A DNA stretch of 64,000 nt from the human T2T-CHM13v2.0 reference genome, Homo sapiens. The notes beneath the pieces are model-generated. The model saw only the letters and a program-made list of their open reading frames with translations. It had not been told where the DNA came from and ran no database searches. The stretch is from positions 33,664,001 to 33,728,000 of the forward strand of contig CP086569.2 of assembly GCA_009914755.4 (NCBI GenBank). The letters are read 5' to 3'. The translations under genes and the position numbers were made by a program. Positions 6,501 through 35,714 of this stretch are shown here, piece by piece. Each line of letters opens with the position of its first letter. Within the stretch, counting starts at the first letter, position 1.

Positions 6501-7138
6501 AAGGAATTGAATGGAGTAGATTGGATTGGATGGCATTGGAATGAAATGTACTGGAAAGGACTCGAATTTCATGAAACGGAATGGAATGAATTGGAACGGA
6601 ATGGACTCGAATGGAATGGAATGTCATGGAATGGCATCAAATGGAATGGCATCAAATGGAATGGAATCGAATGCAATGGAATGCTATGGAATGGAATGGA
6701 ATGCATTGGAATGGAATGTCCTCTATTGGAATGGATTCGAGTGGAATGGAATCGAATATAATGGAGTCGAATGAAATGGAATTGAAAGGAGTGGGATCGA
6801 ATACAATGGAATATACTGGAATGTAATGTAATGAACTCGAATGTAATTGACTGGAATGGAATGTACATGAATGGAATGTAATCGAATGGAAAGTAATCCA
6901 ATGGAATAGAATCTAATGCAATAAAACCGACTCAGATAGAGTAGAATGTAATGGAATGGAGTGCAGTGCAATGGAATGGAATGGAATGGAATGCAATGGA
7001 ATGGAATGGAATGGAATGGAATGGAATGGAATGGAATGGAATGGAATGGGATGGAATGGGATGGAATGGATAGTAATGGACTGGAGTGAAATGGACTGGA
7101 AAGGAATGGACTCAAATTGAAAGGGCTCGAAAGGAATG
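3565..7138 (+). repeat. HOR unit 2 (3574 bp).
   Basis: Same landmark at 3565 and 7139. Confidence 0.85.
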
Positions 7139-10100
7139 GAGTCAAATGGAATGGTCTGGAATGGAATGAACACGAATGTAATGCAATCCAATAGAATGGA
7201 ATCGAATGGCATGGAATATAAAGAAATGGAATCGAAGAGAATGGAAACAAATGGAATGGAATTGAATGGAATGGAATTGAATGGAATGGGAACGAATGGA
7301 GTGAAATTGTATGCAGTAGAAGGGAATAGAATGGAATGCAAGCGAAAGGAAAGGAATGGATTGGAATGGAATGGAATTCATTGGAATGGAAGGGAATGTA
7401 GTGTAATGGACAGGCCTGGAATAAAGTGGAATGCTACGGTCTCGAATGGAATAAAAATGTATGGAATGGAATGCAATGAAACGGAATCGAATGTCATAGA
7501 ATGTAATGGAATGCAAAAAAATGGAATCCAAAATCATTGACTGGAAAGGCTGGGTGTCGAAAGGAATTGACTCCAATGGTATGGAATCGAATGGAATGGA
7601 AGTGAATAGAATCGAACTAAATCGAATGGAATGGAATTGATAGGAACGGAATGGAAAGGAATGCAATGAATTGGCATGGAATGGAATCGAATGGCATCGA
7701 ATGCAATGGAATGGAATGCAATGGAATGGAATGTATTAGAATGTAATGAACTTTAATGGAATGTACTCGAATGGATTCGACTGGAATGGAATGTTCTGGA
7801 AGTGAATGGACTCCAATGGAATGGATTCAAAAGGAATGGAATCGTACGGAATGGAATCTAATGGAATGGAATTAAATGGAAATGAATCAAATTGAATAGC
7901 ACGGAATTGAATTGAATGGAATGGAATGCAATGGAATCTAATGAAACGGAAAGGAAAGGAATGGAATGGAATGGAATGGGCTGGAATGGAAAGGAATCGA
8001 AACGAATGGAATGGAATCGAACTGAAGAGACTGGAATGGAATGCACTGGAATGGAAGGGAGTGTAATGGAAGGTTCTCGAAAAAAATGGAATCGAATGGA
8101 ATGGAATTGAATGGAACGGAATAGAGTCGAATGGAATTGAATGGAATGGAATGGACTAGAGTGAAATGGAATCGAACCACAAGGAATGGACAGGAATAGA
8201 ATGGTCTCGAATTGAATGGAATCGTATGGAATGGCATCAAACGGAATGGAATGGACAGCCACGGAATGGAATGCACTCGAATGCAATGGAGTCGAAACGT
8301 CGAAACTAATGGACTGGAATAGAATGGACTCGACTGGTACGGACTCCAATGGAATGGAATCGAATGGAAGGGAATCGAACGGAATGGACTCGAAGGGAAA
8401 AGACTGCAATGGAAAGGTCTCGAATGGAATGGAAATTAATGGAATGGAATGGAATCGAATGAAATGGAGTCAAAAGGAATGGAATCGAATGGCAAGAAAT
8501 CGAATGTAATGGAATCGCAAGGAATTGATGTGAACGGAACGGAATGGAATGGAATCCAAAGGAATGGAATAGAATGGAATGGAATCGAATGGAAAGGACT
8601 CGAATGGAAATCACTCGAATAGAATGCAATTTAATAAAATAGGATCAAATGTAATGGAATGGAATGGAAAGGAATCGAAACGAAAGGAATGGAGACAGAT
8701 GGAATGGAATGGAACAGAGAGCAATGGTATAGAATGGAATGGAATCATCTGGAATGGAATTGAATGGAATGGAATAATATGAAATGGAATGGAATGGAAT
8801 GGAATGGAATGTCCTTGAATTAAATGGACTGGAATGGAATGGACTCGAACAGAGTGGAATGGAAAGTGTTGAGATAGAATGCAATGGACTCCTTTGGAAT
8901 GGTGTAGTATGCAATGCAATCGACTGGCAGGGAATCAAAAGGAATGTAATGGAATGGATTGGACTGGAATGCAATGGACTCGAATAGATTGGAAACGGAA
9001 TGCAAAGGAATGGAATGGAATAGTGTGGAATGGAATGGAAAGGAATGGAGTGGAATAGACTAGAGTGGAATGGAATGGACTGGAAAGCAATGGACTGGAA
9101 TGGAACTTTCTTGAATGGACTGGAATCAAACGGAATGGAATGCAATGCAATCAAATGGCATGGAATAAAATAGAATGAAAGAGAATCAAATGGAATTGAA
9201 TCGAATGGAATCGAATGGATTGGAAAGGAATAGAATGGAATGGAATGGAATTGACTCAAATGGAATGGACTAGAATGGAATGGATTCGAATGGAAGGCAA
9301 AGGAATGGAATCTGTTGGAATGGACTGTAATGGAATGGAATGGAAGGGATTGGAATGGACTCGAATGGAATGGACTGCAATAGAAAGGATTCGAATGGAA
9401 TGAAAAAGAATTGAATGGAATAGAACAGAATGGAATCAAATCGAATGAAATGGAATGGAATAGAAAGGAATGGAATGAAATGGAATGGAAAGGATTCGAA
9501 TGGAATGCAATCGAATGGAATGGAATCGAACGGAATGGAATAAAATGGAAGAAAACTGGCAAGAAATGGAATCGAAATGAATGGAGTGTTATGGAACGGA
9601 CTCAAAAGGAATTGAATGTAATAGAATGGAGTGGAGTGGACTCGAATATAATGGACTGGAATGGAATGAAATCACAAGGAATGGGAACGAATGGAATGGA
9701 ATGGAAAGGAATGGAATCGAATGGAAAGGAATCGAATGGAAGGGAATGAAATTGAATCAACAGGAATGGAAGGGAATAGAATAGACGGTAATGGAATGGA
9801 CTCGAATAGAATGGACACGAATGCTCAAATTGAATGGACTCGAATGGAATGGAAACGAAAGGAATGTCATCGAATGGAATTGAATGGATTGGAATGAAAT
9901 CGCATAGAATGGAGTGGAATCAAATGGAATTGAATCGAAAGGAAAGGAAGCGAATGGACTGAAATGAAATGGAATGGAATTGAATGGAAAGTAATGCAAT
10001 GGAATAGAATGGAACGAAATTTCACGGAATGGAATCAAACTGAATGGAATCAAATCAATGGAATCAAATCAAATGGAATGGAAAGGAATTGAATGGAGTA

Positions 10101-10715
10101 GATTGGATTGGATGGGATTGGAATGAAATGTACTGGAAAGGACTCGAATTTCATGAAACGGAATGGAATGAATTGGAACGGAATGGACTCGAATGGAATG
10201 GAATGTCATGGAATGGCATCAAATGGAATGGCATCAAATGGAATGGAATCGAATGCAATGGAATGCTATGGAATGGAATGGAATGCATTGGAATGGAATG
10301 TCCTGTAATGGAATGGATTCGAGTGGAATGGAATCGAATATAATGGAGTCGAATGAAATGGAATTGAAAGGAATGGGATCGAATACAATGGAATATACTG
10401 GAATGTAATGTAATGAACTCGAATGTAATTGACTGGAATGGAATGTACATGAATGGAATGTAATCGAATGGAAAGTAATCCAATGGAATAGAATCTAATG
10501 CAATAAAATCGACTCAGATAGAGTAGAATGTAATGGAATGGAGTGCAGTGCAATGGAATGGAATGGAATGGAATGCAATGGAATGGAATGGAATGGAATG
10601 GAATGGAATGGAATGGGATGGAATAGGATGGAATGGGATGGAATGGATAGTAATGGACTGGAGTGAAATGGACTGGAAAGGAATGGACTCAAATTGATAG
10701 GGCTCGAAAGGAATG
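7139..10715 (+). repeat. HOR unit 3 (3577 bp; carries the 8-bp 'gtcgaaac' tandem duplication).
   Basis: Landmark at 7139 and 10716. Confidence 0.85.
8291..8306 (+). repeat. 8-bp tandem duplication 'gtcgaaac'+'gtcgaaac' (unit 3).
   Basis: Seen directly: 'ggagtcgaaacgtcgaaactaatgg' here versus 'ggagtcgaaactaatgg' in most units. Confidence 0.9.
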
Positions 10716-13700
10716 GAGTCAAATGGAATGGTCTGGAATGGAATGAACACGAATGTAATGCAATCCAATAGAATGGAATCGAATGGCATGGAATATAAAG
10801 AAATGGAATCGAAGAGAATGGAAACAAATGGAATGGAATTGAATGGAATGGAATTGAATGGAATGGGAACGAATGGAGTGAAATTGTATGCAGTAGAAGG
10901 GAATAGAATGGAATGCAAGCGAAAGGAAAGGAATGGATTGGAATGGAATGGAATTCATTGGAATGGAAGGGAATGTAGTGTAATGGACAGGCCTGGAATA
11001 AAGTGGAATGCTACGGTCTCGAATGGAATAAAAATGTATGGAATGGAATGCAATGAAACGGAATCGAATGTCATAGAATGTAATGGAATGCAAAAAAATG
11101 GAATCCAAAATCATTGACTGGAAAGGCTGGGTGTCGAAAGGAATTGACTCCAATGGAATGGAATCGAATGGAATGGAAGTGAATAGAATCGAACTAAATC
11201 GAATGGAATGGAATTGATAGGAACGGAATGGAAAGGAATGCAATGATTTGGCATGGAATGGAATCGAATGGCATCGAATGGAATGGAATGGAATGCAATG
11301 GAATGGAATGTATTAGAATGTAATGAACTTTAATGGAATGTACTCGAATGGATTCGACTGGAATGGAATGTTCTGGAAGTGAATGGACTCCAATGGAATG
11401 GATTCAAAAGGAATGGAATCGTACGGAATGGAATCTAATGGAATGGAATTAAATGGAAATGAATCAAATTGAATAGCACGGAATTGAATTGAATGGAATG
11501 GAATGCAATGGAATCTAATGAAACGGAAAGGAAAGGAATGGAATGGAATGGAATGGGCTGGAATGGAAAGGAATCGAAACGAATGGAATGGAATCGAACT
11601 GAAGAGACTGGAATGGAATGCACTGGAATGGAAGGGAGTGTAATGGAAGGTTCTCGAAAAAAATGGAATCGAATGGAATGGAATTGAATGGAACGGAATA
11701 GAGTCGAATGGAATTGAATGGAATGGAATGGACTAGAGTGAAATGGAATCGAACCACAAGGAATGGACAGGAATAGAATGGTCTCGAATTGAATGGAATC
11801 GTATGGAATGGCATCAAACGGAATGGAATGGACAGCCACGGAATGGAATGCACTCGAATGCAATGGAGTCGAAACTAATGGACTGGAATAGAATGGACTC
11901 GACTGGTACGGACTCCAATGGAATGGAATCGAATGGAAGGGAATCGAACGGAATGGACTCGAAGGGAAAAGACTGCAATGGAAAGGTCTCGAATGGAATG
12001 GAAATTAATGGAATGGAATGGAATCGAATGAAATGGAGTCAAAAGGAATGGAATCGAATGGCAAGAAATCGAATGTAATGGAATCGCAAGGAATTGATGT
12101 GAACGGAACGGAATGGAATGGAATCCAAAGGAATGGAATAGAATGGAATGGAATCGAATGGAAAGGACTCGAATGGAAATCACTCGAATAGAATGCAATT
12201 TAATAAAATAGGATCAAATGTAATGGAATGGAATGGAAAGGAATCGAAACGAAAGGAATGGAGACAGATGGAATGGAATGGAACAGAGAGCAATGGTATA
12301 GAATGGAATGGAATCATCTGGAATGGAATTGAATGGAATGGAATAATATGAAATGGAATGGAATGGAATGGAATGGAATGCCCTTGAATTAAATGGACTG
12401 GAATGGAATGGACTCGAACAGAGTGGAATGGAAAGTGTTGAGATAGAATGGAATGGACTCCTTTGGAATGGTGTAGTATGCAATGCAATCGACTGGCAGG
12501 GAATCAAAAGGAATGTAATGGAATGGATTGGACTGGAATGCAATGGACTCGAATAGATTGGAAACGGAATGCAAAGGAATGGAATGGAATAGTATGGAAT
12601 GGAATGGAAAGGAATGGAGTGGAATAGACTAGAGTGGAATGGAATGGACTGGAAAGCAATGGACTGGAATGGAACTTTCTTGAATGGACTGGAATCAAAC
12701 GGAATGGAATGCAATGCAATCAAATGGCATGGAATAAAATAGAATGAAAGAGAATCAAATGGAATTGAATCGAATGGAATCGAATGGATTGGAAAGGAAT
12801 AGAATGGAATGGAATGGAATTGACTCAAATGGAATGGACTAGAATGGAATGGATTCGAATGGAAGGCAAAGGAATGGAATCTATTGGAATGGACTGTAAT
12901 GGAATGGAATGGAAGGGATTGGAATGGACTCGAATGGAATGGACTGCAATAGAAAGGATTCGAATGGAATGAAAAAGAATTGAATGGAATAGAACAGAAT
13001 GGAATCAAATCGAATGAAATGGAATGGAATAGAAAGGAATGGAATGAAATGGAATGGAAAGGATTCGAATGGAATGCAATCGAATGGAATGGAATCGAAC
13101 GGAATGGAATAAAATGGAAGAAAACTGGCAAGAAATGGAATCGAAATGAATGGAGTGTTATGGAACGGACTCAAAAGGAATTGAATGTAATAGAATGGAG
13201 TGGAGTGGACTCGAATATAATGGACTGGAATGGAATGAAATCACAAGGAATGGGAACGAATGGAATGGAATGGAAAGGAATGGAATCGAATGGAAAGGAA
13301 TCGAATGGAAGGGAATGAAATTGAATTAACAGGAATGGAAGGGAATAGAATAGACGGTAATGGAATGGACTCGAATAGAATGGACACGAATGCTCAAATT
13401 GAATGGACTCGAATGGAATGGAAACGAAAGGAATGTCATCGAATGGAATTGAATGGATTGGAATGAAATCGCATAGAATGGAGTGGAATCAAATGGAATT
13501 GAATCGAAAGGAAAGGAAGCGAATGGACTGAAATGAAATGGAATGGAATTGAATGGAAAGTAATGCAATGGAATAGAATGGAACGAAATTTCACGGAATG
13601 GAATCAAACTGAATGGAATCAAATCAATGGAATCAAATCAAATGGAATGGAAAGGAATTGAATGGAGTAGATTGGATTGGATGGGATTGGAATGAAATGT

Positions 13701-14284
13701 ACTGGAAAGGACTCGAATTTCATGAAACGGAATGGAATGAATTGGAACGGAATGGACTCGAATGGAATGGAATGTCATGGAATGGCATCAAATGGAATGG
13801 CATCAAATGGAATGGAATCGAATGCAATGGAATGCTATGGAATGGAATGGAATGCGTTGGAATGGAATGTCCTGTAATGGAATGGATTCGAGTGGAATGG
13901 AATCGAATATAATGGAGTCGAATGAAATGGAATTGAAAGGAATGGGATCGAATACAATGGAATATACTGGAATGTAATGTAATGAACTCGAATGTAATTG
14001 ACTGGAATGGAATGTACATGAATGGAATGTAATCGAATGGAAAGTAATCCAATGGAATAGAATCTAATGCAATAAAATCGACTCAGATAGAGTAGAATGT
14101 AATGGAATGGAGTGCAGTGCAATGGAATGGAATGGAATGGAATGCAATGGAATGGAATGGAATGGAATGGAATGGAATGGAATGGGATGGAATGGGATGG
14201 AATGGGATGGAATGGATAGTAATGGACTGGAGTGAAATGGACTGGAAAGGAATGGACTCAAATTGATAGGGCTCGAAAGGAATG
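10716..14284 (+). repeat. HOR unit 4 (3569 bp).
   Basis: Landmark at 10716 and 14285. Confidence 0.85.
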
Positions 14285-17200
14285 GAGTCAAATGGAATGG
14301 TCTGGAATGGAATGAACACGAATGTAATGCAATCCAATAGAATGGAATCGAATGGCATGGAATATAAAGAAATGGAATCGAAGAGAATGGAAACAAATGG
14401 AATGGAATTGAATGGAATGGAATTGAATGGAATGGGAACGAATGGAGTGAAATTGTATGCAGTAGAAGGGAATAGAACGGAATGCAAGCGAAAGGAAAGG
14501 AATGGATTGGAATGGAATGGAATTCATTGGAATGGAAGGGAATGTAGTGTAATGGACAGGCCTGGAATAAAGTGGAATGCTACGGTCTCGAATGGAATAA
14601 AAATGTATGGAATGGAATGCAATGAAACGGAATCGAATGTCATAGAATGTAATGGAATGCAAAAAAATGGAATCCAAAATCATTGACTGGAAAGGCTGGG
14701 TGTCGAAAGGAATTGACTCCAATGGAATGGAATCGAATGGAATGGAAGTGAATAGAATCGAACTAAATCGAATGGAATGGAATTGATAGGAACGGAATGG
14801 AAAGGAATGCAATGATTTGGCATGGAATGGAATCGAATGGCATCGAATGGAATGGAATGGAATGCAATGGAATGGAATGTATTAGAATGTAATGAACTTT
14901 AATGGAATGTACTCGAATGGATTCGACTGGAATGGAATGTTCTGGAAGTGAATGGACTCCAATGGAATGGATTCAAAAGGAATGGAATCGTACGGAATGG
15001 AATCTAATGGAATGGAATTAAATGGAAATGAATCAAATTGAATAGCACGGAATTGAATTGAATGGAATGGAATGCAATGGAATCTAATGAAACGGAAAGG
15101 AAAGGAATGGATTGGAATGGAATGGGCTGGAATGGAAAGGAATCGAAACGAATGGAATGGAATCGAAGTGAAGAGACTGGAATGGAATGCACTGGAATGG
15201 AAGGGAGTGTAATGGAAGGTTCTCGAAAAAAATGGAATCGAATGGAATGGAATTGAATGGAACGGAATAGAGTCGAATGGAATTGAATGGAATGGAATGG
15301 ACTAGAGTGAAATGGAATCGAACCACAAGGAATGGACAGGAATAGAATGGTCTCGAATTGAATGGAATCGTATGGAATGGCATCAAACGGAATGGAATGG
15401 ACAGCCACGGAATGGAATGCACTCGAATGCAATGGAGTCGAAACTAATGGACTGGAATAGAATGGACTCGACTGGTACGGACTCCAATGGAATGGAATCG
15501 AATGGAAGGGAATCGAACGGAATGGACTCGAAGGGAAAAGACTGCAATGGAAAGGTCTCGAATGGAATGGAAATTAATGGAATGGAATGGAATCGAATGA
15601 AATGGAGTCAAAAGGAATGGAATCGAATGGCAAGAAATCGAATGTAATGGAATCGCAAGGAATTGATGTGAACGGAACGGAATGGAATGGAATCCAAAGG
15701 AATGGAATAGAATGGAATGGAATCGAATGGAAAGGACTCGAATGGAAATCACTCGAATAGAATGCAATTTAATAAAATAGGATCAAATGTAATGGAATGG
15801 AATGGAAAGGAATCGAAACGAAAGGAATGGAGACAGATGGAATGGAATGGAACAGAGTGCAATGGTATAGAATGGAATGGAATCATCTGGAATGGAATTG
15901 AATGGAATGGAATAATATGAAATGGAATGGACTGGAATGGAATGGAATGCCCTTGAATTAAATGGACTGGAATGGAATGGACTCGAACAGAGTGGAATGG
16001 AAAGTGTTGAGATAGAATGGAATGGACTCCTTTGGAATGGTGTAGTATGCAATGCAATCGACTGGCAGGGAATCAAAAGGAATGTAATGGAATGGATTGG
16101 ACTGGAATGCAATGGACTCGAATAGATTGGAAACGGAATGCAAAGGAATGGAATGGAATAGTATGGAATGGAATGGAAAGGAATGGAGTGGAATAGACTA
16201 GAGTGGAATGGAATGGACTGGAAAGCAATGGACTGGAATGGAACTTTCTTGAATGGACTGGAATCAAACGGAATGGAATGCAATGCAATCAAATGGCATG
16301 GAATAAAATAGAATGAAAGAGAATCAAATGGAATTGAATCGAATGGAATCGAATGGATTGGAAAGGAATAGAATGGAATGGAATGGAATTGACTCAAATG
16401 GAATGGACTAGAATGGAATGGATTCGAATGGAAGGCAAAGGAATGGAATCTATTGGAATGGACTGTAATGGAATGGAATGGAAGGGATTGGAATGGACTC
16501 GAATGGAATGGACTGCAATAGAAAGGATTCGAATGGAATGAAAAAGAATTGAATGGAATAGAACAGAATGGAATCAAATCGAATGAAATGGAATGGAATA
16601 GAAAGGAATGGAATGAAATGGAATGGAAAGGATTCGAATGGAATGCAATCGAATGGAATGGAATCGAACGGAATGGAATAAAATGGAAGAAAACTGGCAA
16701 GAAATGGAATCGAAATGAATGGAGTGTTATGGAACGGACTCAAAAGGAATTGAATGTAATAGAATGGAGTGGAGTGGACTCGAATATAATGGACTGGAAT
16801 GGAATGAAATCACATGGAATGGGAACGAATGGAATGGAATGGAAAGGAATGGAATCAAATGGAAAGGAATCGAATGGAAGGGAATGAAATTGAATCAACA
16901 GGAATGGAAGGGAATAGAATAGACGGTAATGGAATGGACTCGAATTGAATGGACACGAATGCTGAAATTGAATGGACTCGAATGGAATGGAAACGAAAGG
17001 AATGTCATCGAATGGAATTGAATCGATTGGAATGAAATCGCATAGAATGGAGTGGAATCAAATGGAATTGAATCGAAAGGAAAGGAAGCGAATGGACTGA
17101 AATGAAATGGAATGGAATTGAATGGAAAGTAATGCAATGGAATAGAATGGAACGAAATTTCACGGAATGGAATCAAACTGAATGGAATCAAATCAATGGA

Positions 17201-17848
17201 ATCAAATCAAATGGAATGGAAAGGAATTGAATGGAGTAGATTGGATTGGATGGGATTGGAATGAAATGTACTGGAAAGGACTCGAATTTCATGAAACGGA
17301 ATGGAATGAATTGGAACGGAATGGACTCGAATGGAATGGAATGTCATGGAATGGCATCAAATGGAATGGCATCAAATGGAATGGAATCGAATGCAATGGA
17401 ATGCTATGGAATGGAATGGAATGCATTGGAATGGAATGTCCTCTAATGGAATGGATTCGAGTGGAATGGAATCGAATATAATGGAGTCGAATGAAATGGA
17501 ATTGGAAGGAGTGGGATCGAATACAATGGAATATACTGGAATGTAATGTAATGAACTCGAATGTAATTGACTGGAATGGAATGTACATGAATGGAATGTA
17601 ATCGAATGGAAAGTAATCCAATGGAATAGAATCTAATGCAATAAAACCGACTCAGATAGAGTAGAATGTAATGGAATGGAGTGCAGTGCAATGGAATGGA
17701 ATGGAATGGAATGCAATGGAATGGAATGGAATGGAATGGAATGGAATGGAATGGAATGGGATGGAATGGGATGGAATGGATAGTAATGGACTGGAGTGAA
17801 ATGGACTGGAAAGGAATGGACTCAAATTGAAAGGGCTCGAAAGGAATG
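14285..17848 (+). repeat. HOR unit 5 (3564 bp).
   Basis: Landmark at 14285 and 17849. Confidence 0.85.
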
Positions 17849-20800: not shown

Positions 20801-21427
20801 TAGATTGGATTGGATGGGATTGGAATGAAATGTACTGGAAAGGACTCGAATTTCATGAAACGGAATGGAATGAATTGGAACGGAATGGACTCGAATGGAA
20901 TGGAATGTCATGGAATGGCATCAAATGGAATGGCATCAAATGGAATGGAATCGAATGCAATGGAATGCTATGGAATGGAATGGAATGCATTGGAATGGAA
21001 TGTCCTGTAATGGAATGGATTCGAGTGGAATGGAATCGAATATAATGGAGTCGAATGAAATGGAATTGAAAGGAATGGGATCGAATACAATGGAATATAC
21101 TGGAATGTAATGTAATGAACTCGAATGTAATTGACTGGAATGGAATGTACATGAATGGAATGTAATCGAATGGAAAGTAATCCAATGGAATAGAATCTAA
21201 TGCAATAAAATCGACTCAGATAGAGTAGAATGTAATGGAATGGAGTGCAGTGCAATGGAATGGAATGGAATGGAATGCAATGGAATGGAATGGAATGGAA
21301 TGGAATGGAATGGAATGGAATGGAATGGGATGGAATGGGATGGAATGGTATGGAATGGATAGTAATGGACTGGAGTGAAATGGACTGGAAAGGAATGGAC
21401 TCAAATTGAAAGGGCTCGAAAGGAATG
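17849..21427 (+). repeat. HOR unit 6 (3579 bp).
   Basis: Landmark at 17849 and 21428. Confidence 0.85.
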
Positions 21428-24400
21428 GAGTCAAATGGAATGGTCTGGAATGGAATGAACACGAATGTAATGCAATCCAATAGAATGGAATCGAATGGCA
21501 TGGAATATAAAGAAATGGAATCGAAGAGAATGGAAACAAATGGAATGGAATTGAATGGAATGGAATTGAATGGAATGGGAACGAATGGAGTGAAATTGTA
21601 TGCAGTAGAAGGGAATAGAATGGAATGCAAGCGAAAGGAAAGGAATGGATTGGAATGGAATGGAATTCATTGGAATGGAAGGGAATGTAGTGTAATGGAC
21701 AGGCCTGGAATAAAGTGGAATGCTACGGTCTCGAATGGAATAAAAATGTATGGAATGGAATGCAATGAAACGGAATCGAATGTCATAGAATGTAATGGAA
21801 TGCAAAAAAATGGAATCCAAAATCATTGACTGGAAAGGCTGGGTGTCGAAAGGAATTGACTCCAATGGAATGGAATCGAATGGAATGGAAGTGAATAGAA
21901 TCGAACTAAATCGAATGGAATGGAATTGATAGGAACGGAATGGAAAGGAATGCAATGATTTGGCATGGAATGGAATCGAATGGCATCGAATGGAATGGAA
22001 TGGAATGCAATGGAATGGAATGTATTAGAATGTAATGAACTTTAATGGAATGTACTCGAATGGATTCGACTGGAATGGAATGTTCTGGAAGTGAATGGAC
22101 TCCAATGGAATGGATTCAAAAGGAATGGAATCGTACGGAATGGAATCTAATGGAATGGAATTAAATGGAAATGAATCAAATTGAATAGCACGGAATTGAA
22201 TTGAATGGAATGGAATGCAATGGAATCTAATGAAACGGAAAGGAAAGGAATGGAATGGAATGGAATGGGCTGGAATGGAAAGGAATCGAAACGAATGGAA
22301 TGGAATCGAACTGAAGAGACTGGAATGGAATGCACTGGAATGGAAGGGAGTGTAATGGAAGGTTCTCGAAAAAAATGGAATCGAATGGAATGGAATTGAA
22401 TGGAACGGAATAGAGTCGAATGGAATTGAATGGAATGGAATGGACTAGAGTGAAATGGAATCGAACCACAAGGAATGGACAGGAATAGAATGGTCTCGAA
22501 TTGAATGGAATCGTATGGAATGGCATCAAACGGAATGGAATGGACAGCCACGGAATGGAATGCACTCGAATGCAATGGAGTCGAAACGTCGAAACTAATG
22601 GACTGGAATAGAATGGACTCGACTGGTACGGACTCCAATGGAATGGAATCGAATGGAAGGGAATCGAACGGAATGGACTCGAAGGGAAAAGACTGCAATG
22701 GAAAGGTCTCGAATGGAATGGAAATTAATGGAATGGAATGGAATCGAATGAAATGGAGTCAAAAGGAATGGAATCGAATGGCAAGAAATCGAATGTAATG
22801 GAATCGCAAGGAATTGATGTGAACGGAACGGAATGGAATGGAATCCAAAGGAATGGAATAGAATGGAATGGAATCGAATGGAAAGGACTCGAATGGAAAT
22901 CACTCGAATAGAATGCAATTTAATAAAATAGGATCAAATGTAATGGAATGGAATGGAAAGGAATCGAAACGAAAGGAATGGAGACAGATGGAATGGAATG
23001 GAACAGAGAGCAATGGTATAGAATGGAATGGAATCATCTGGAATGGAATTGAATGGAATGGAATAATATGAAATGGAATGGAATGGAATGGAATGGAATG
23101 TCCTTGAATTAAATGGACTGGAATGGAATGGACTCGAACAGAGTGGAATGGAAAGTGTTGAGATAGAATGCAATGGACTCCTTTGGAATGGTGTAGTATG
23201 CAATGCAATCGACTGGCAGGGAATCAAAAGGAATGTAATGGAATGGATTGGACTGGAATGCAATGGACTCGAATAGATTGGAAACGGAATGCAAAGGAAT
23301 GGAATGGAATAGTATGGAATGGAATGGAAAGGAATGGAGTGGAATAGACTAGAGTGGAATGGAATGGACTGGAAAGCAATGGACTGGAATGGAACTTTCT
23401 TGAATGGACTGGAATCAAACGGAATGGAATGCAATGCAATCAAATGGCATGGAATAAAATAGAATGAAAGAGAATCAAATGGAATTGAATCGAATGGAAT
23501 CGAATGGATTGGAAAGGAATAGAATGGAATGGAATGGAATTGACTCAAATGGAATGGACTAGAATGGAATGGATTCGAATGGAAGGCAAAGGAATGGAAT
23601 CTATTGGAATGGACTGTAATGGAATGGAATGGAAGGGATTGGAATGGACTCGAATGGAATGGACTGCAATAGATAGGATTCGAATGGAATGAAAAAGAAT
23701 TGAATGGAATAGAACAGAATGGAATCAAATCGAATGAAATGGAATGGAATAGAAAGGAATGGAATGAAATGGAATGGAAAGGATTCGAATGGAATGCAAT
23801 CGAATGGAATGGAATCGAACGGAATGGAATAAAATGGAAGAAAACTGGCAAGAAATGGAATCGAAATGAATGGAGTGTTATGGAACGGACTCAAAAGGAA
23901 TTGAATGTAATAGAATGGAGTGGAGTGGACTCGAATATAATGGACTGGAATGGAATGAAATCACAAGGAATGGGAACGAATGGAATGGAATGGAAAGGAA
24001 TGGAATCGAATGGAAAGGAATCGAATGGAAGGGAATGAAATTGAATCAACAGGAATGGAAGGGAATAGAATAGACGGTAATGGAATGGACTCGAATAGAA
24101 TGGACACGAATGCTCAAATTGAATGGACTCGAATGGAATGGAAACGAAAGGAATGTCATCGAATGGAATTGAATGGATTGGAATGAAATCGCATAGAATG
24201 GAGTGGAATCAAATGGAATTGAATCGAAAGGAAAGGAAGCGAATGGACTGAAATGAAATGGAATGGAATTGAATGGAAAGTAATGCAATGGAATAGAATG
24301 GAACGAAATTTCACGGAATGGAATCAAACTGAATGGAATCAAATCAATGGAATCAAATCAAATAGAATGGAAAGGAATTGAATGGAGTAGATTGGATTGG

Positions 24401-24999
24401 ATGGGATTGGAATGAAATGTACTGGAAAGGACTCGAATTTCATGAAACGGAATGGAATGAATTGGAACGGAATGGACTCGAATGGAATGGAATGTCATGG
24501 AATGGCATCAAATGGAATGGCATCAAATGGAATGGAATCGAATGCAATGGAATGCTATGGAATGGAATGGAATGCATTGGAATGGAATGTCCTGTAATGG
24601 AATGGATTCGAGTGGAATGGAATCGAATATAATGGAGTCGAATGAAATGGAATTGAAAGGAATGGGATCGAATACAATGGAATATACTGGAATGTAATGT
24701 AATGAACTCGAATGTAATTGACTGGAATGGAATGTACATGAATGGAATGTAATCGAATGGAAAGTAATCCAATGGAATAGAATCTAATGCAATAAAATCG
24801 ACTCAGATAGAGTAGAATGTAATGGAATGGAGTGCAGTGCAATGGAATGGAATGGAATGGAATGCAATGGAATGGAATGGAATGGAATGGAATGGAATGG
24901 GATGGAATGGGATGGAATGGTATGGAATGGATAGTAATGGACTGGAGTGAAATGGACTGGAAAGGAATGGACTCAAATTGAAAGGGCTCGAAAGGAATG
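21428..24999 (+). repeat. HOR unit 7 (3572 bp; carries the 8-bp duplication).
   Basis: Landmark at 21428 and 25000. Confidence 0.85.
22580..22595 (+). repeat. Same 8-bp tandem duplication (unit 7).
   Basis: Identical string at identical unit offset (about +1152). Confidence 0.9.
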
Positions 25000-27900
25000 G
25001 AGTCAAATGGAATGGTCTGGAATGGAATGAACACGAATGTAATGCAATCCAATAGAATGGAATCGAATGGCATGGAATATAAAGAAATGGAATCGAAGAG
25101 AATGGAAACAAATGGAATGGAATTGAATGGAATGGAATTGAATGGAATGGGAACGAATGGAGTGAAATTGTATGCAGTAGAAGGGAATAGAATGGAATGC
25201 AAGCGAAAGGAAAGGAATGGATTGGAATGGAATGGAATTCATTGGAATGGAAGGGAATGTAGTGTAATGGACAGGCCTGGAATAAAGTGGAATGCTACGG
25301 TCTCGAATGGAATAAAAATGTATGGAATGGAATGCAATGAAACGGAATCGAATGTCATAGAATGTAATGGAATGCAAAAAAATGGAATCCAAAATCATTG
25401 ACTGGAAAGGCTGGGTGTCGAAAGGAATTGACTCCAATGGAATGGAATCGAATGGAATGGAAGTGAATAGAATCGAACTAAATCGAATGGAATGGAATTG
25501 ATAGGAACGGAATGGAAAGGAATGCAATGATTTGGCATGGAATGGAATCGAATGGCATCGAATGGAATGGAATGGAATGCAATGGAATGGAATGTATTAG
25601 AATGTAATGAACTTTAATGGAATGTACTCGAATGGATTCGACTGGAATGGAATGTTCTGGAAGTGAATGGACTCCAATGGAATGGATTCAAAAGGAATGG
25701 AATCGTACGGAATGGAATCTAATGGAATGGAATTAAATGGAAATGAATCAAATTGAATAGCACGGAATTGAATTGAATGGAATGGAATGCAATGGAATCT
25801 AATGAAACGGAAAGGAAAGGAATGGAATGGAATGGAATGGGCTGGAATGGAAAGGAATCGAAACGAATGGAATGGAATCGAACTGAAGAGACTGGAATGG
25901 AATGCACTGGAATGGAAGGGAGTGTAATGGAAGGTTCTCGAAAATAATGGAATGGAATGGAATGGAATTGAATGGAACGGAATAGAGTCGAATGGAATTG
26001 AATGGAATGGAATGGACTAGAGTGAAATGGAATCGAACCACAAGGAATGGACAGGAATAGAATGGTCTCGAATTGAATGGAATCGTATGGAATGGCATCA
26101 AACGGAATGGAATGGACAGCCACGGAATGGAATGCACTCGAATGCAATGGAGTCGAAACTAATGGACTGGAATAGAATGGACTCGACTGGTACGGACTCC
26201 AATGGAATGGAATCGAATGGAAGGGAATCGAACGGAATGGACTCGAAGGGAAAAGACTGCAATGGAAAGGTCTCGAATGGAATGGAAATTAATGGAATGG
26301 AATGGAATCGAATGAAATGGAGTCAAAAGGAATGGAATCGAATGGCAAGAAATCGAATGTAATGGAATCGCAAGGAATTGATGTGAACGGAACGGAATGG
26401 AATGGAATCCAAAGGAATGGAATAGAATGGAATGGAATCGAATGGAAAGGACTCGAATGGAAATCACTCGAATAGAATGCAATTTAATAAAATAGGATCA
26501 AATGGAATGGAATGGAATGGAAAGGAATCGAAACGAAAGGAATGGAGACAGATGGAATGGAATGGAACAGAGAGCAATGGTATAGAATGGAATGGAATCA
26601 TCTGGAATGGAATTGAATGGAATGGAATAATATGAAATGGAATGGAATGGAATGGAATGGAATGTCCTTGAATTAAATGGACTGGAATGGAATGGACTCG
26701 AACAGAGTGGAATGGAAAGTGTTGAGATAGAATGCAATGGACTCCTTTGGAATGGTGTAGTATGCAATGCAATCGACTGGCAGGGAATCAAAAGGAATGT
26801 AATGGAATGGATTGGACTGGAATGCAATGGACTCGAATAGATTGGAAACGGAATGCAAAGGAATGGAATGGAATAGTATGGAATGGAATGGAAAGGAATG
26901 GAGTGGAATAGACTAGAGTGGAATGGAATGGACTGGAAAGCAATGGACTGGAATGGAACTTTCTTGAATGGACTGGAATCAAACGGAATGGAATGCAATG
27001 CAATCAAATGGCATGGAATAAAATAGAATGAAAGAGAATCAAATGGAATTGAATCGAATGGAATCGAATGGATTGGAAAGGAATAGAATGGAATGGAATG
27101 GAATTGACTCAAATGGAATGGACTAGAATGGAATGGATTCGAATGGAAGGCAAAGGAATGGAATCTATTGGAATGGACTGTAATGGAATGGAATGGAAGG
27201 GATTGGAATGGACTCGAATGGAATGGACTGCAATAGATAGGATTCGAATGGAATGAAAAAGAATTGAATGGAATAGAACAGAATGGAATCAAATCGAATG
27301 AAATGGAATGGAATAGAAAGGAATGGAATGAAATGGAATGGAAAGGATTCGAATGGAATGCAATCGAATGGAATGGAATCGAACGGAATGGAATAAAATG
27401 GAAGAAAACTGGCAAGAAATGGAATCGAAATGAATGGAGTGTTATGGAACGGACTCAAAAGGAATTGAATGTAATAGAATGGAGTGGAGTGGACTCGAAT
27501 ATAATGGACTGGAATGGAATGAAATCACAAGGAATGGGAACGAATGGAATGGAATGGAAAGGAATGGAATCGAATGGAAAGGAATCGAATGGAAGGGAAT
27601 GAAATTGAATCAACAGGAATGGAAGGGAATAGAATAGACGGTAATGGAATGGACTCGAATAGAATGGACACGAATGCTCAAATTGAATGGACTCGAATGG
27701 AATGGAAACGAAAGGAATGTCATCGAATGGAATTGAATGGATTGGAATGAAATCGCATAGAATGGAGTGGAATCAAATGGAATTGAATCGAAAGGAAAGG
27801 AAGCGAATGGACTGAAATGAAATGGAATGGAATTGAATGGAAAGTAATGCAATGGAATAGAATGGAACGAAATTTCACGGAATGGAATCAAACTGAATGG

Positions 27901-28568
27901 AATCAAATCAATGGAATCAAATCAAATGGAATGGAAAGGAATTGAATGGAGTAGATTGGATTGGATGGGATTGGAATGAAATGTACTGGAAAGGACTCGA
28001 ATTTCATGAAACGGAATGGAATGAATTGGAACGGAATGGACTCGAATGGAATGGAATGTCATGGAATGGCATCAAATGGAATGGCATCAAATGGAATGGA
28101 ATCGAATGCAATGGAATGCTATGGAATGGAATGGAATGCGTTGGAATGGAATGTCCTGTAATGGAATGGATTCGAGTGGAATGGAATCGAATATAATGGA
28201 GTCGAATGAAATGGAATTGAAAGGAATGGGATCGAATACAATGGAATATACTGGAATGTAATGTAATGAACTCGAATGTAATTGACTGGAATGGAATGTA
28301 CATGAATGGAATGTAATCGAATGGAAAGTAATCCAATGGAATAGAATCTAATGCAATAAAATCGACTCAGATAGAGTAGAATGTAATGGAATGGAGTGCA
28401 GTGCAATGGAATGGAATGGAATGGAATGCAATGGAATGGAATGGAATGGAATGGAATGGAATGGAATGGGATGGAATGGGATGGAATGGGATGGAATGGA
28501 TAGTAATGGACTGGAGTGAAATGGACTGGAAAGGAATGGACTCAAATTGATAGGGCTCGAAAGGAATG
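25000..28568 (+). repeat. HOR unit 8 (3569 bp).
   Basis: Landmark at 25000 and 28569. Confidence 0.85.
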
Positions 28569-31500
28569 GAGTCAAATGGAATGGTCTGGAATGGAATGAA
28601 CACGAATGTAATGCAATCCAATAGAATGGAATCGAATGGCATGGAATATAAAGAAATGGAATCGAAGAGAATGGAAACAAATGGAATGGAATTGAATGGA
28701 ATGGAATTGAATGGAATGGGAACGAATGGAGTGAAATTGTATGCAGTAGAAGGGAATAGAACGGAATGCAAGCGAAAGGAAAGGAATGGATTGGAATGGA
28801 ATGGAATTCATTGGAATGGAAGGGAATGTAGTGTAATGGACAGGCCTGGAATAAAGTGGAATGCTACGGTCTCGAATGGAATAAAAATGTATGGAATGGA
28901 ATGCAATGAAACGGAATCGAATGTCATAGAATGTAATGGAATGCAAAAAAATGGAATCCAAAATCATTGACTGGAAAGGCTGGGTGTCGAAAGGAATTGA
29001 CTCCAATGGTATGGAATCGAATGGAATGGAAGTGAATAGAATCGAACTAAATCGAATGGAATGGAATTGATAGGAACGGAATGGAAAGGAATGCAATGAA
29101 TTGGCATGGAATGGAATCGAATGGCATCGAATGCAATGGAATGGAATGCAATGGAATGGAATGTATTAGAATGTAATGAACTTTAATGGAATGTACTCGA
29201 ATGGATTCGACTGGAATGGAATGTTCTGGAAGTAAATGGACTCCAATGGAATGGATTCAAAAGGAATGTAATCGTACGGAATGGAATCTAATGGAATGGA
29301 ATTAAATGGAAATGAATCAAATTGAATAGCACGGAATTGAATTGAATGGAATGGAATGCAATGGAATCTAATGAAACGGAAAGGAAAGGAATGGAATGGA
29401 ATGGAATGGGCTGGAATGGAAAGGAATTGAAACGAATGGAATGGAATCGAACTGAAGAGACTGGAATGGAATGCACTGGAATGGAAGGGAGTGTAATGGA
29501 AGGTTCTCGAAAAAAATGGAATCGAATGGAATGGAATTGAATGGAACGGAATAGAGTCGAATGGAATTGAATGGAATGGAATGGACTAGAGTGAAATGGA
29601 ATCGAACCACAAGGAATGGACAGGAATAGAATGGTCTCGAATTGAATGGAATCGTATGGAATGGCATCAAACGGAATGGAATGGACAGCCACGGAATGGA
29701 ATGCACTCGAATGCAATGGAGTCGAAACGTCGAAACTAATGGACTGGAATAGAATGGACTCGACTGGTACGGACTCCAATGGAATGGAATCGAATGGAAG
29801 GGAATCGAACGGAATGGACTCGAAGGGAAAAGACTGCAATGGAAAGGTCTCGAATGGAATGGAAATTAATGGAATGGAATGGAATCGAATGAAATGGAGT
29901 CAAAAGGAATGGAATCGAATGGCAAGAAATCGAATGTAATGGAATCGCAAGGAATTGATGTGAACGGAACGGAATGGAATGGAATCCAAAGGAATGGAAT
30001 AGAATGGAATGGAATCGAATGGAAAGGACTCGAATGGAAATCACTCGAATAGAATGCAATTTAATAAAATAGGATCAAATGTAATGGAATGGAATGGAAA
30101 GGAATCGAAACAAAAGGAATGGAGACAGATGGAATGGAATGGAACAGAGAGCAATGGTATAGAATGGAATGGAATCATCTGGAATGGAATTGAATGGAAT
30201 GGAATAATATGAAATGGAATGGAATGGAATGGAATGGAATGTCCTTGAATTAAATGGACTGGAATGGAATGGACTCGAACAGAGTGGAATGGAAAGTGTT
30301 GAGATAGAATGCAATGGACTCCTTTGGAATGGTGTAGTATGCAATGCAATCGACTGGCAGGGAATCAAAAGGAATGTAATGGAATGGATTGGACTGGAAT
30401 GCAATGGACTCGAATAGATTGGAAACGGAATGCAAAGGAATGGAATGGAATAGTATGGAATGGAATGGAAAGGAATGGAGTGGAATAGACTAGAGTGGAA
30501 TGGAATGGACTGGAAAGCAATGGACTGGAATGGAACTTTCTTGAATGGACTGGAATCAAACGGAATGGAATGCAATGCAATCAAATGGCATGGAATAAAA
30601 TAGAATGAAAGAGAATCAAATGGAATTGAATCGAATGGAATCGAATGGATTGGAAAGGAATAGAATGGAATGGAATGGAATTGACTCAAATGGAATGGAC
30701 TAGAATGGAATGGATTCGAATGGAAGGCAAAGGAATGGAATCTATTGGAATGGACTGTAATGGAATGGAATGGAAGGGATTGGAATGGACTCGAATGGAA
30801 TGGACTGCAATAGAAAGGATTCGAATGGAATGAAAAAGAATTGAATGGAATAGAACAGAATGGAATCAAATCGAATGAAATGGAATGGAATAGAAAGGAA
30901 TGGAATGAAATGGAATGGAAAGGATTCGAATGGAATGCAATCGAATGGAATGGAATCGAACGGAATGGAATAAAATGGAAGAAAACTGGCAAGAAATGGA
31001 ATCGAAATGAATGGAGTGTTATGGAACGGACTCAAAAGGAATTGAATGTAATAGAATGGAGTGGAGTGGACTCGAATATAATGGACTGGAATGGAATGAA
31101 ATCACAAGGAATGGGAACGAATGGAATGGAATGGAAAGGAATGGAATCGAATGGAAAGGAATCGAATGGAAGGGAATGAAATTGAATCAACAGGAATGGA
31201 AGGGAATAGAATAGACGGTAATGGAATGGACTCGAATAGAATGGACACGAATGCTCAAATTGAATGGACTCGAATGGAATGGAAACGAAAGGAATGTCAT
31301 CGAATGGAATTGAATCGATTGGAATGAAATCGCATAGAATGGAGTGGAATCAAATGGAATTGAATCGAAAGGAAAGGAAGCGAATGGACTGAAATGAAAT
31401 GGAATGGAATTGAATGGAAAGTAATGCAATGGAATAGAATGGAACGAAATTTCACGGAATGGAATCAAACTGAATGGAATCAAATCAATGGAATCAAATC

Positions 31501-35100: not shown

Positions 35101-35714
35101 ATTGGATTGGATGGGATTGGAATGAAATGTACTGGAAAGGACTCGAATTTCATGAAACGGAATGGAATGAATTGGAACGGAATGGACTCGAATGGAATGG
35201 AATGTCATGGAATGGCATCAAATGGAATGGCATCAAATGGAATGGAATCGAATGCAATGGAATGCTATGGAATGGAATGGAATGCATTGGAATGGAATGT
35301 CCTCTAATGGAATGGATTCGAGTGGAATGGAATCGAATATAATGGAGTCGAATGAAATGGAATTGAAAGGAGTGGGATCGAATACAATGGAATATACTGG
35401 AATGTAATGTAATGAACTCGAATGTAATTGACTGGAATGGAATGTACATGAATGGAATGTAATCGAATGGAAAGTAATCCAATGGAATAGAATCTAATGC
35501 AATAAAACCGACTCAGATAGAGTAGAATGTAATGGAATGGAGTGCAGTGCAATGGAATGGAATGGAATGGAATGCAATGGAATGGAATGGAATGGAATGG
35601 AATGGAATTGAATGGAATGGAATGGGATGGAATGGGATGGAATGGATAGTAATGGACTGGAGTGAAATGGACTGGAAAGGAATGGACTCAAATTGAAAGG
35701 GCTCGAAAGGAATG
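32146..35714 (+). repeat. HOR unit 10 (3569 bp).
   Basis: Landmark at 32146 and 35715. Confidence 0.85.

What the first reader, a model, noticed from the sequence alone, without database searches (positions are those of the whole stretch)
7139..28800. Additional mosaic periodicities: +4-unit and +2-unit sharing in the first half of the array
Variant sharing at +4 units (about 14.29 kb):
- Units 3 and 7 share the 8-bp duplication and the 183-aa-ORF haplotype (7858/22147).
- The 3' part of unit 4 matches the 3' part of unit 8 (ECVGMEC 13613/27897, GMRWNG 13762/28046, SIPTHS 13720/28004, MHSVLFPS 14083/28367).
- The start of unit 5 matches the start of unit 9 (NRTECK 14282/28566).
Variant sharing at +2 units:
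- Units 6 and 8 share HYFREPS and FHSIIFENL at 18568/25719 and 'ctcgaaaataatgg' at 18781/25931.
A block across three consecutive units:
- Units 6, 7 and 8 all carry NPIYCSPF, ESYLLQS and TAIDRIRME (19347/22934/26498 etc.).
Breakpoints between haplotype patches fall inside units, as expected from repeated unequal crossing-over and gene conversion. Sharing also occurs at longer range (unit 5 with units 15 and 17: TECNGIEW at 15717/51395/58533).
Basis: seen in the sequence. Interest (0 to 1): 0.5.

Follow-up and report, generated by a model that had tools for sequence, protein, structure and literature searches.

The report
Non-periodic variant patchwork in Y satellite DYZ1
The window is an ordinary stretch of the human Y-chromosome satellite DYZ1, and the "+4-unit / +2-unit periodicities" are not periodic: they come down to a few shared variants, one of them a real 1.4-kb copied patch, which fits the known shuffling of this satellite by unequal exchange and gene conversion.

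Summary
The window holds 18 tandem ~3.57-kb units of human DYZ1 (HSat3A6, Yq12). Each unit has one HaeIII site and is 98–99.5% identical over its full length to a published DYZ1 clone.

However:
- The cited coordinates are the low ends of mechanical ORFs, not the variants.
- The peptide motifs collapse to six variant sites.
- The 8-bp duplication is also in units 9 and 12.

Permuting unit order shows no excess sharing at lag 4 (p=0.20–0.36) or lag 2 (p≈0.27) across the array. Only lag 3 stands out (p≈0.008), because units 9–11 were recently duplicated as 12–14. Equally strong sharing occurs at lags 6, 9, 10 and 12.

One +4 element is solid. Bases 13328–14725 are identical to 27612–29009 (1,398 bp). 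The patch crosses a unit boundary and carries two private SNPs (p≈0.02). It is best read as one recent gene-conversion tract, probably from units 4|5 into units 8|9.

Mosaicism inside units is pervasive (Rm≥9). Unequal exchange and gene conversion in Yq12 are already documented, so this is known biology of low interest.

The parts
1..64000 (-). Human DYZ1 (HSat3A6) satellite array: 18 head-to-tail units of 3,519–3,583 bp (the last truncated). The TTCCA strand is the minus strand.
   Evidence: TRF finds a pentamer-derived array across the whole window. There is one GGCC site per unit, with HaeIII fragments of 3,564 bp (3 units), 3,569 bp (6 units) and 3,577 bp (3 units). The published DYZ1 clone aligns end to end at 98.0–99.5%.
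7139..32145 (.). Units 3–9, the part of the array the finding addresses.
   Evidence: Variant matrix and pairwise differences.
13328..14725 (.). Inferred donor copy of the 1,398-bp shared tract (3' part of unit 4 plus the first 440 bp of unit 5). It carries private SNPs at 13856 (A>G) and 14478 (T>C), and 14267 T.
   Evidence: Exact identity at lag 14,284. It is bounded by differences at 13327 and 14726. It is the only boundary-crossing tract with two private doubleton variants, which happens in 1.4–1.9% of random unit orders.
27612..29009 (.). Inferred recipient copy of the same tract (3' part of unit 8 plus the start of unit 9), with the same private SNPs at 28140 and 28762.
   Evidence: The paralogous stretch in units 11|12 lacks these alleles and differs at 8 sites. 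This points to an overwrite that happened after the 3-unit duplication.
8291..8298 (.). 8-bp tandem duplication GTCGAAAC in unit 3. The same insertion is at 22580–22587 (unit 7), 29721–29728 (unit 9) and 40436–40443 (unit 12). It creates the mechanical 183-aa minus-strand ORF.
   Evidence: It is absent from 26 of 26 external DYZ1 fragments.
18794..18803 (.). Variants shared by units 6 and 8: A>T at 18794/25945, private to these two units, and C>G at 18803/25954, also present in units 14, 15 and 18.
   Evidence: Pair (6,8) ranks 3rd of 153 for shared rare derived alleles.
20087..20087 (.). A>T SNP private to the three adjacent units 6, 7 and 8 (20087, 23674, 27238).
   Evidence: It is absent from 21 of 21 external fragments.
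15858..15858 (.). A>T SNP shared by units 5, 15 and 17 (15858, 51536, 58674). Units 5 and 17 also share C>G at 15168/57984, and they share a 5-bp deletion with unit 7.
28158..49584 (.). Context: a recent 3-unit (10.7-kb) tandem duplication. Roughly 28.2–38.86 kb is repeated as 38.87–49.58 kb. The inferred crossover lies between 38855 and 38873.
   Evidence: Units 9 and 12 differ at 2 sites, 10 and 13 at 1 site, and 11 and 14 at 2 sites up to alignment column 3172. Lag 3 is the only significant lag.

Best explanation
The window is a piece of the human Y-chromosome long-arm heterochromatin satellite DYZ1. It is non-coding, built from 3.57-kb higher-order units of degenerate GGAAT/TTCCA pentamers.

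Its units are 98.6–99.97% alike. They differ by about 80 variant events, which are distributed as a patchwork rather than a periodic pattern. The patchwork arises from two processes on a chromosome that has no homologue here, so the exchanges are presumably between sister chromatids or within one chromatid.
1. **Out-of-register unequal exchange**, which duplicates or deletes whole numbers of units. This is shown by the recent 3-unit duplication of units 9–11 as units 12–14.
2. **Short non-reciprocal transfers (gene conversion)** between units at arbitrary offsets.

The '+4-unit' signal is essentially one such transfer. A tract of 0.6–1.4 kb spanning the unit 4|5 junction was copied onto the unit 8|9 junction after the 3-unit duplication. 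The direction is inferred.

The '+2' signal is one pair of closely related units (6 and 8) inside a small local family (6, 7, 8).

The long ORFs and peptide 'motifs' are by-products of translating a stop-poor pentamer repeat. They have no coding meaning.
For: **Identity**
- The array is pentamer-derived with GC 0.38–0.40.
- There is one HaeIII site per unit, and the modal fragment is 3,569 bp. Hallast et al. report the same for DYZ1: 3,569 bp and 38% GC.
- The published clone MZT1a (3,564 bp; PMC3925983, supplement 1) aligns over its full length at 98.0–99.5% to every unit.
- Four of that paper's six primers match exactly in 17–18 units.

**No periodicity**
- Permutation tests give lag 4 p=0.20–0.69 and lag 2 p=0.26–0.36. 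Only lag 3 is significant, at p≈0.008–0.012.
- The pairs sharing most rare derived alleles have lags 3, 12, 2, 3, 9, 6, 9, 3, 4....
- There is no distance decay.

**Mosaicism**
- 191 of 780 site pairs are four-gamete incompatible, and Rm is at least 9.
- Each unit needs 3–7 donor segments.

**Conversion tract**
- There is 1,398 bp of exact identity at lag 14,284, containing two private SNPs on either side of a unit boundary.
- That arrangement occurs in 1.4–1.9% of random unit orders.
- Outside the tract the partner units diverge strongly. Units 5 and 9 differ at 27 sites.
- Both SNP alleles are absent from 24–28 external DYZ1 fragments, so they are local derived markers.
- Unit 12, the near-identical copy of unit 9, lacks 28762C. 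Unit 11's 3' end differs from unit 8's at 7 sites. One overwrite of 27612–29009 explains both facts, and also why lag-3 identity falls about 0.4–0.6 kb short of three full units.

**Literature**
- 29% of de novo Yq12 SNVs match non-orthologous DYZ1/DYZ2 sites, which the authors attribute to interlocus gene conversion.
- In a later pedigree set, 17% of events were consistent with gene conversion.
Against: - Restricted to units 1–9, rare-variant sharing at lag 4 is nominally enriched (p=0.013; family-wise about 0.11). Each of the four pairs (2,6), (3,7), (4,8) and (5,9) shares something rare. That could be read as the remnant of an old 4-unit duplication. However, the (2,6) item is independent pentamer slippage, and without it p=0.087.
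- Only 18 units are available, so power to detect weak periodicity is low.
- The direction of the conversion is inferred by parsimony, not observed. So is the assumption that the exchanging partners are sister chromatids.
- Raw reads are not available, so mis-polishing between near-identical units cannot be excluded.
- Some 'shared' sites may be homoplasic. Changes toward the pentamer consensus are enriched among shared versus singleton variants (10 of 36 versus 2 of 39, p=0.011).
Confidence: 0.78

Rival explanations
1. There is a genuine higher-order periodicity. An old 4-unit (14.3-kb) segmental duplication copied units 2–5 as units 6–9, or the array has a 4-unit super-repeat. Its traces survive as the sharing seen in pairs (2,6), (3,7), (4,8) and (5,9).
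For: All four consecutive lag-4 pairs in units 2–9 share at least one rare variant, and in units 1–9 lag 4 gives p=0.013 uncorrected. The array clearly does make multi-unit duplications, as the lag-3 event shows.
Against: - Whole-unit distances at lag 4 are not low: (2,6)=22 and (5,9)=27, against a mean of about 17.
- The (2,6) insertion is 5 bp in one unit and 10 bp in the other, with different sequence, in a spot that is length-hypervariable in external DYZ1. Without it p=0.087.
- The 8-bp duplication is equally shared with units 9 and 12.
- Unit 12, copied from unit 9 very recently, lacks the 28762C allele. The 4|5–8|9 identity is therefore younger than the lag-3 duplication, not an old remnant.
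- There is no lag-4 signal in units 10–18.
Confidence: 0.07
2. The cause is recurrent mutation (homoplasy). The same substitutions arose independently in different units, for example at hotspots or through templating by neighbouring pentamers. Sharing would then reflect neither descent nor transfer.
For: Changes toward the pentamer consensus are over-represented among shared variants (p=0.011). The three substitutions that separate the copies of the lag-3 duplication are all AATCG>AATGG. The pentamer run at alignment columns 3480–3545 slips recurrently.
Against: - The variants the finding relies on move away from the pentamer consensus or are neutral to it (193, 945, 2256, 3172). They are absent from 21–28 external DYZ1 fragments.
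- Two private variants sit 622 bp apart in one identical tract at the same lag.
- An 8-bp duplication is unlikely to recur identically.
Confidence: 0.05
3. The cause is an assembly or polishing artefact. Reads from one near-identical unit were assigned to another during consensus building, which created false shared patches.
For: Units are more than 99% identical and the patches are short. Satellite arrays are known problem regions for assembly. Reads cannot be inspected here.
Against: - The variant pattern is internally coherent, with clean tract boundaries and a model that also explains the lag-3 duplication edges.
- Mis-polishing usually erases rare variants rather than copying two private alleles as a block.
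- Independent pedigree data show that real gene conversion occurs in DYZ1.
Confidence: 0.08

Closest known systems
Human DYZ1 (HSat3 subfamily A6), the 3.56-kb HaeIII repeat of Yq12
   Same: - The units derive from GGAAT/TTCCA pentamers.
- There is one HaeIII site per unit, with 3,564- and 3,569-bp fragments.
- GC is 38–40%.
- Identity to a published clone is 98–99.5%.
- Units are more than 98% alike, as reported for T2T-Y.
   Different: Nothing structural differs. This block does have its own majority alleles at six or more sites (alignment columns 1753, 1822, 2548, 2757, 3190, 3502). These are rare or absent in external DYZ1, so it is a locally homogenised sub-variant.
Interlocus (intra-array) gene conversion and unequal sister-chromatid exchange in Yq12 satellites (Rhie et al. 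2023; Porubsky et al. 2025)
   Same: Short patches carrying alleles that already exist in other units. Duplications of whole numbers of units. No homologue is involved.
   Different: Here the events are inferred from a single static sequence rather than observed in transmissions. The window yields one tract with usable bounds (0.62–1.40 kb).
Nested higher-order repeats ('super-HORs') of alpha satellite and other HSat arrays
   Same: A multi-unit repeat at lag 3 exists locally, where units 9–11 are repeated as units 12–14.
   Different: It is a single recent duplication, not an array-wide period. No period of 4 or 2 units is detectable.

Membership tests
DYZ1 / HSat3A6 | Built from diverged copies of the pentamer GGAAT (TTCCA/CATTC). 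| tested here: met
   TRF consensus AATGGAATGGAATCG across 7–63998. Strong G/A strand bias.
DYZ1 / HSat3A6 | Higher-order unit of about 3.56–3.6 kb released by HaeIII (one GGCC per unit). | tested here: met
   Exactly 18 GGCC sites, one per unit. Fragment lengths include 3,564 bp (3 units), 3,569 bp (6 units) and 3,577 bp (3 units). The literature gives 3,564 bp and a modal 3,569 bp.
DYZ1 / HSat3A6 | High sequence identity to an experimentally cloned human DYZ1 unit. | tested here: met
   MZT1a (PMC3925983, supplement 1) aligns 1–3564 to every unit at 98.0–99.5%. Primers DYZ1 C, D, E and F match exactly in 17–18 units, while primers A and B have no exact match. A primer pair recalled from memory gives a 154-bp product in every unit, but it could not be verified in the literature.
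DYZ1 / HSat3A6 | Located in Yq12, in blocks alternating with DYZ2 (HSat1B). | not testable with these tools
   The window is DYZ1 from end to end, so there is no flank and no reference Y to map against.
Periodic super-repeat of 4 (or 2) DYZ1 units | Units separated by that lag are more alike, or share more rare derived variants, than units at other lags across the array. | tested here: not met
   Lag 4: mean difference 17.5 against a null of 16.9 (p=0.69); rare-variant sharing p=0.20–0.36. Lag 2: p=0.26–0.36.
Gene-conversion tract | A short stretch of identity carrying private derived alleles, flanked on both sides by divergence between the same two copies. | tested here: met
   13328–14725 = 27612–29009, with private SNPs at 13856/28140 and 14478/28762. 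Differences resume at 13327 and 14726, and units 5 and 9 differ at 27 sites overall.
Gene-conversion tract | Non-reciprocal transfer: the donor is unchanged and the recipient's earlier state is replaced. | tested here: inconclusive
   The recipient's earlier state is inferred from the paralogous copy in units 11|12. A double crossover cannot be distinguished from a single sequence.
Unequal-exchange tandem duplication | Near-identity over a whole number of units at a fixed lag, with a single hybrid junction. | tested here: met
   At lag 10,715 bp there are 4 differences over about 10.1–10.3 kb once position 193, which lies in the converted patch, is set aside. The junction lies between 38855 and 38873.

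The most novel reading that the evidence does not exclude
Exchange partners in Yq12 might not be chosen at random. Under this reading, out-of-register pairing would favour offsets of about 3–4 units (10.7–14.3 kb), perhaps set by a physical periodicity of the heterochromatin fibre or its loops. The lag-3 duplication and the lag-4 conversion tract would then be two readouts of one preferred offset range.
Probability: 0.03. Interest if true: 0.45.

Novelty: already known. Interest (0 to 1): 0.1.

Why it matters
It matters little beyond housekeeping.

Three points are useful:
1. They are a caution for the scan. Peptide-motif 'haplotypes' read from a pentamer satellite count the same SNP several times, and pairs picked after the fact mimic periodicity.
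2. The window gives one clean, bounded example of a DYZ1 conversion tract of 0.62–1.40 kb, with an inferred donor, recipient and relative timing.
3. Polarising variants with external DYZ1 copies shows that several local 'minor' alleles are in fact ancestral, which changes which sharing is informative.

Tried and rejected
- Fixed-lag autocorrelation was abandoned because indels between units break the register. A unit alignment was used instead.
- A fuzzy-regex anchor search timed out.
- Literature look-up of the 154-bp primer pair recalled from memory found nothing. The exact matches are therefore supporting evidence only, and identity rests on the published clone and the PMC3925983 primers.
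- Treating local minor alleles as derived was rejected after external polarisation. Eight sites were flipped. The (1,10) 'doubleton' at lag 9 is then a shared ancestral allele and carries no information.
- The (2,6) shared insertion was rejected as a marker.
- A proximity effect was tested and not found.
- Coding or RNA function of the ORFs was checked. Only sub-threshold Pentapeptide and Extensin low-complexity hits appeared, with no Rfam family.
- The mosaicism of the MZT1a clone was not used, because the clone was assembled from several PCR amplicons and may be chimeric.
- The other clones in that supplement were not transcribed, since the gain would have been small.

Full report
**1. What the window is**

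Tandem Repeats Finder reports one array over 7–63998, built on AATGGAATGGAATCG. GC is 0.38–0.40 with strong G-over-C skew.

Self-BLAST of a 3,572-bp stretch defines 18 head-to-tail units of 3,519–3,583 bp, the last truncated. GGCC occurs exactly once per unit. The resulting HaeIII fragments are 3,564 bp (3 units), 3,569 bp (6 units) and 3,577 bp (3 units), plus single other lengths.

Hallast et al. (bioRxiv 10.1101/2022.12.01.518658) describe DYZ1 (HSat3A6) as follows:
- a pentamer-derived unit of about 3.5 kb;
- GC of 38%;
- a commonest virtual HaeIII fragment of 3,569 bp.

I transcribed the cloned 3,564-bp DYZ1 unit MZT1a from Additional file 1 of PMC3925983. It aligns over its full length, on the minus strand, to every unit at 98.0–99.5%. 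Four of that paper's six primers match exactly in 17–18 units.

The window is therefore human Y-chromosome DYZ1. Its Yq12 location cannot be tested from the window itself.

**2. Checking the observation**

A MAFFT alignment of the 18 units has 3,611 columns and 181 variable columns. These reduce to 83 variant events, 38 of which are shared by two or more units.

The eleventh, MHSVLFPS, is found only as LHSVLFPS with the initiator TTG read as M. Three caveats apply.

- **Coordinates.** At least three of the cited coordinate sets match the low ends of mechanical minus-strand ORFs, for example 7858..8409 and 19347..20264. They are not the variant positions.
- **Multiple counting.** Several motifs are the same SNP read in different frames or strands. 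The true sites are:

|---|---|---|---|
| 13856 / 28140 | A>G | 4, 8 | ECVGMEC, GMRWNG, SIPTHS |
| 14478 / 28762 | T>C | 5, 9 | NRTECK, 'MHSVLFPS' |
| 18794 / 25945 | A>T | 6, 8 | HYFREPS, FHSIIFENL, ctcgaaaataatgg |
| 18803 / 25954 | C>G | 6, 8, 14, 15, 18 | same three |
| 20087 / 23674 / 27238 | A>T | 6, 7, 8 | NPIYCSPF, ESYLLQS, TAIDRIRME |
| 15858 / 51536 / 58674 | A>T | 5, 15, 17 | TECNGIEW |

- **The 8-bp duplication.** GTCGAAAC|GTCGAAAC and its 183-aa ORF are in units 3, 7, 9 and 12. '+4' is therefore one of six pairings among the four carriers.

**3. Polarising the variants**

A DYZ1-specific 23-mer found human DYZ1 in 33 metagenome contigs and 6 'bacterial' assemblies. I aligned 42 in-register fragments of at least 95% identity to the units.

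- At alignment columns 1753, 1775, 1822, 2548, 2757, 3190, 3502 and 3522, the window's minor allele is the external majority. For example, 22 of 22 fragments carry it at column 2757 and 24 of 24 at column 3190. At these sites the window's majority allele is the local derived one, and sharing the 'minor' allele says nothing about local events.
- The variants used in the finding are absent from 21–28 external fragments (columns 193, 945, 1152ins, 1581, 2256, 3172, 3593). They are valid local derived markers.

**4. Is there a +4 or +2 periodicity?**

I permuted unit order, which keeps the haplotypes intact, and scored two things: mean pairwise difference, and sharing of derived alleles weighted by rarity.

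| Test set | Lag 2 | Lag 3 | Lag 4 |
|---|---|---|---|
| Array-wide | p=0.26–0.36 | p=0.008–0.012 | p=0.20–0.69 |
| Units 3–9 | — | — | p=0.10 |
| Units 1–9 | — | — | p=0.013 (family-wise about 0.11) |
| Units 1–9, slippage insertion removed | — | — | p=0.087 |

The units 1–9 result depends on a 'shared' insertion in units 2 and 6. That insertion is 5 bp in one unit and 10 bp in the other, with different sequence, and it sits in a pentamer run that varies in length among external DYZ1 copies.

The pairs sharing most rare derived alleles are (9,12), (5,17), (6,8), (11,14), (3,12), (3,9), (2,11), (15,18) and (4,8). Their lags are 3, 12, 2, 3, 9, 6, 9, 3 and 4.

Carriers of rare variants are not significantly closer together than chance (mean lag 5.64 against 6.32, p=0.23). 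Distance does not rise with lag (Mantel r=0.10, p=0.15).

**5. What is real**

*(a) Mosaicism.* 191 of 780 pairs of informative sites show all four gametes, and Hudson–Kaplan Rm is at least 9 within a 3.57-kb unit. Greedy 'painting' needs 3–7 donor segments per unit, drawn from donors at many lags.

*(b) A recent 3-unit duplication*.
- Units 9 and 12 differ at 2 sites.
- Units 10 and 13 differ at 1 site.
- Units 11 and 14 differ at 2 sites up to alignment column 3172, and then at 7 sites.

*(c) One lag-4 tract.*
- 13328–14725 is identical base for base to 27612–29009 (1,398 bp).
- It is bounded by differences at 13327 and 14726.
- It crosses the unit boundary and contains two private SNPs 622 bp apart.
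- A boundary-crossing tract with two such private variants appears in only 1.4–1.9% of random unit orders.

**6. A model for the tract (inference)**

An unequal exchange at a 3-unit offset, with crossover at column X, predicts that the stretch from unit 8 (after X) to unit 11 (before X) equals the stretch from unit 11 (after X) to unit 14 (before X).

The data place X between columns 3172 and 3190 (38855–38873). They fit this prediction everywhere except in 27612–29009. There:
- unit 8's 3' end and unit 9's first 440 bp match units 4|5;
- they do not match the paralogous units 11|12.

A single later transfer from units 4|5 into units 8|9 explains three things at once:
- the 7 differences between the 3' ends of units 8 and 11;
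- the difference between units 9 and 12 at column 193;
- the lag-4 identity.

The minimum tract length is 622 bp (13856 to 14478) and the maximum is 1,398 bp.

**7. Why transfer rather than new point mutation**

The three substitutions that distinguish the two copies outside this tract are at column 2757 (units 9 vs 12), column 1822 (10 vs 13) and column 954 (11 vs 14). All three involve alleles already present in other units. For three random new mutations this has a chance of about 4×10⁻⁸.

There is a caveat. All three are AATCG>AATGG changes in the distal copy. Changes toward the pentamer consensus are also enriched among shared versus singleton variants (10 of 36 versus 2 of 39, Fisher p=0.011). 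Recurrent change templated by neighbouring pentamers is therefore an alternative at those particular sites. The finding's own markers are not of this kind.

**8. Comparison with what is known**

- The T2T-Y paper describes DYZ1 as ~3.6-kb nested repeats of CATTC with more than 98% identity between copies. [quoted passage not shown]
- Porubsky et al. (PMC12240836) found that 29% of de novo Yq12 SNVs match non-orthologous DYZ1/DYZ2 sites, and attribute this to interlocus gene conversion.
- A 2026 preprint classifies 17% of Yq12 de novo events as consistent with gene conversion.

**9. No function for the ORFs**

The long minus-strand ORFs give only sub-threshold Pentapeptide and Extensin low-complexity hits, and no Rfam family matches. 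This is the expected result of translating a 5-bp repeat.

**10. Verdict**

This is an ordinary DYZ1 array. The novelty class is 'already known' and interest is low.

Remaining uncertainties:
- There are only 18 units.
- No reads are available to exclude mis-polishing.
- The direction and mode of transfer are inferred.

Noticed in passing
window 28158–49584: Recent 3-unit (10,715-bp) tandem duplication, units 9–11 repeated as units 12–14. The copies differ at only about 5 sites. The inferred crossover lies between 38855 and 38873. This is the only lag with significant excess similarity.
   Followed up: yes
window 31316/42031, 33950/44665, 36669/47384: The three substitutions that separate the two copies of the 3-unit duplication are all AATCG>AATGG, toward the pentamer consensus. 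All three are in the distal copy, and all are at sites polymorphic in other units. Across the array, changes toward the consensus are enriched among shared versus singleton variants (Fisher p=0.011). This hints at biased or pentamer-templated micro-conversion.
   Followed up: partly
alignment columns 1753, 1822, 2548, 2757, 3190, 3502 in most units of the window: The window's majority alleles at these sites are absent or rare in about 20 external DYZ1 fragments. This block is therefore a locally homogenised sub-variant of DYZ1. Units 5, 10, 13, 15 and 18 keep more of the ancestral alleles.
   Followed up: partly
L034–L039 (genome contigs) and L001–L033 (metagenome contigs): Human DYZ1 at up to 99.9% identity sits in contigs deposited as Actinomadura cremea JCM 3308, Streptosporangium violaceochromogenes JCM 3281, Streptomyces kurssanovii JCM 4388, Streptomyces sp. 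NPDC050549, Senimuribacter sp. DSM 106208 and a Polyangiaceae MAG. It also occurs in many metagenome assemblies. This is human male DNA contamination.
   Followed up: partly
window ~50663/50664 (unit 15); 49352–49365 (unit 14); unit 1 (1–3564): Private length changes. Unit 15 has a 50-bp deletion. Unit 14 has one extra copy of a 14-bp motif (AATGGAATCAAATC), which TRF flags at 49311–49376. Unit 1 is the most divergent unit, with about 13 private changes including a 10-bp insertion.
   Followed up: no
alignment columns 2115–2129 in unit 1 and unit 18: A 15-bp deletion is shared by the first and last units of the window (lag 17) and by 1 of 19 external fragments. It is either an old polymorphism or a recurrent repeat-mediated deletion.
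   Followed up: no
alignment columns 3480–3545 of every unit (e.g. window 21297–21360): A run of near-perfect GGAAT/GGGAT pentamers is a length-hypervariable spot. Within the window it gains 5–10 bp, and external DYZ1 copies show 10–40-bp deletions. Indels here are unreliable as markers of descent.
   Followed up: yes
alignment columns 3463–3467 (units 5, 7, 17; e.g. window 17715, 24866, 60531): The 5-bp deletion that makes 3,564-bp rather than 3,569-bp units is also present in the published clone MZT1a and in 8 of 23 external fragments. The classical 3,564/3,569 length difference is therefore an old, array-wide polymorphism.
   Followed up: partly
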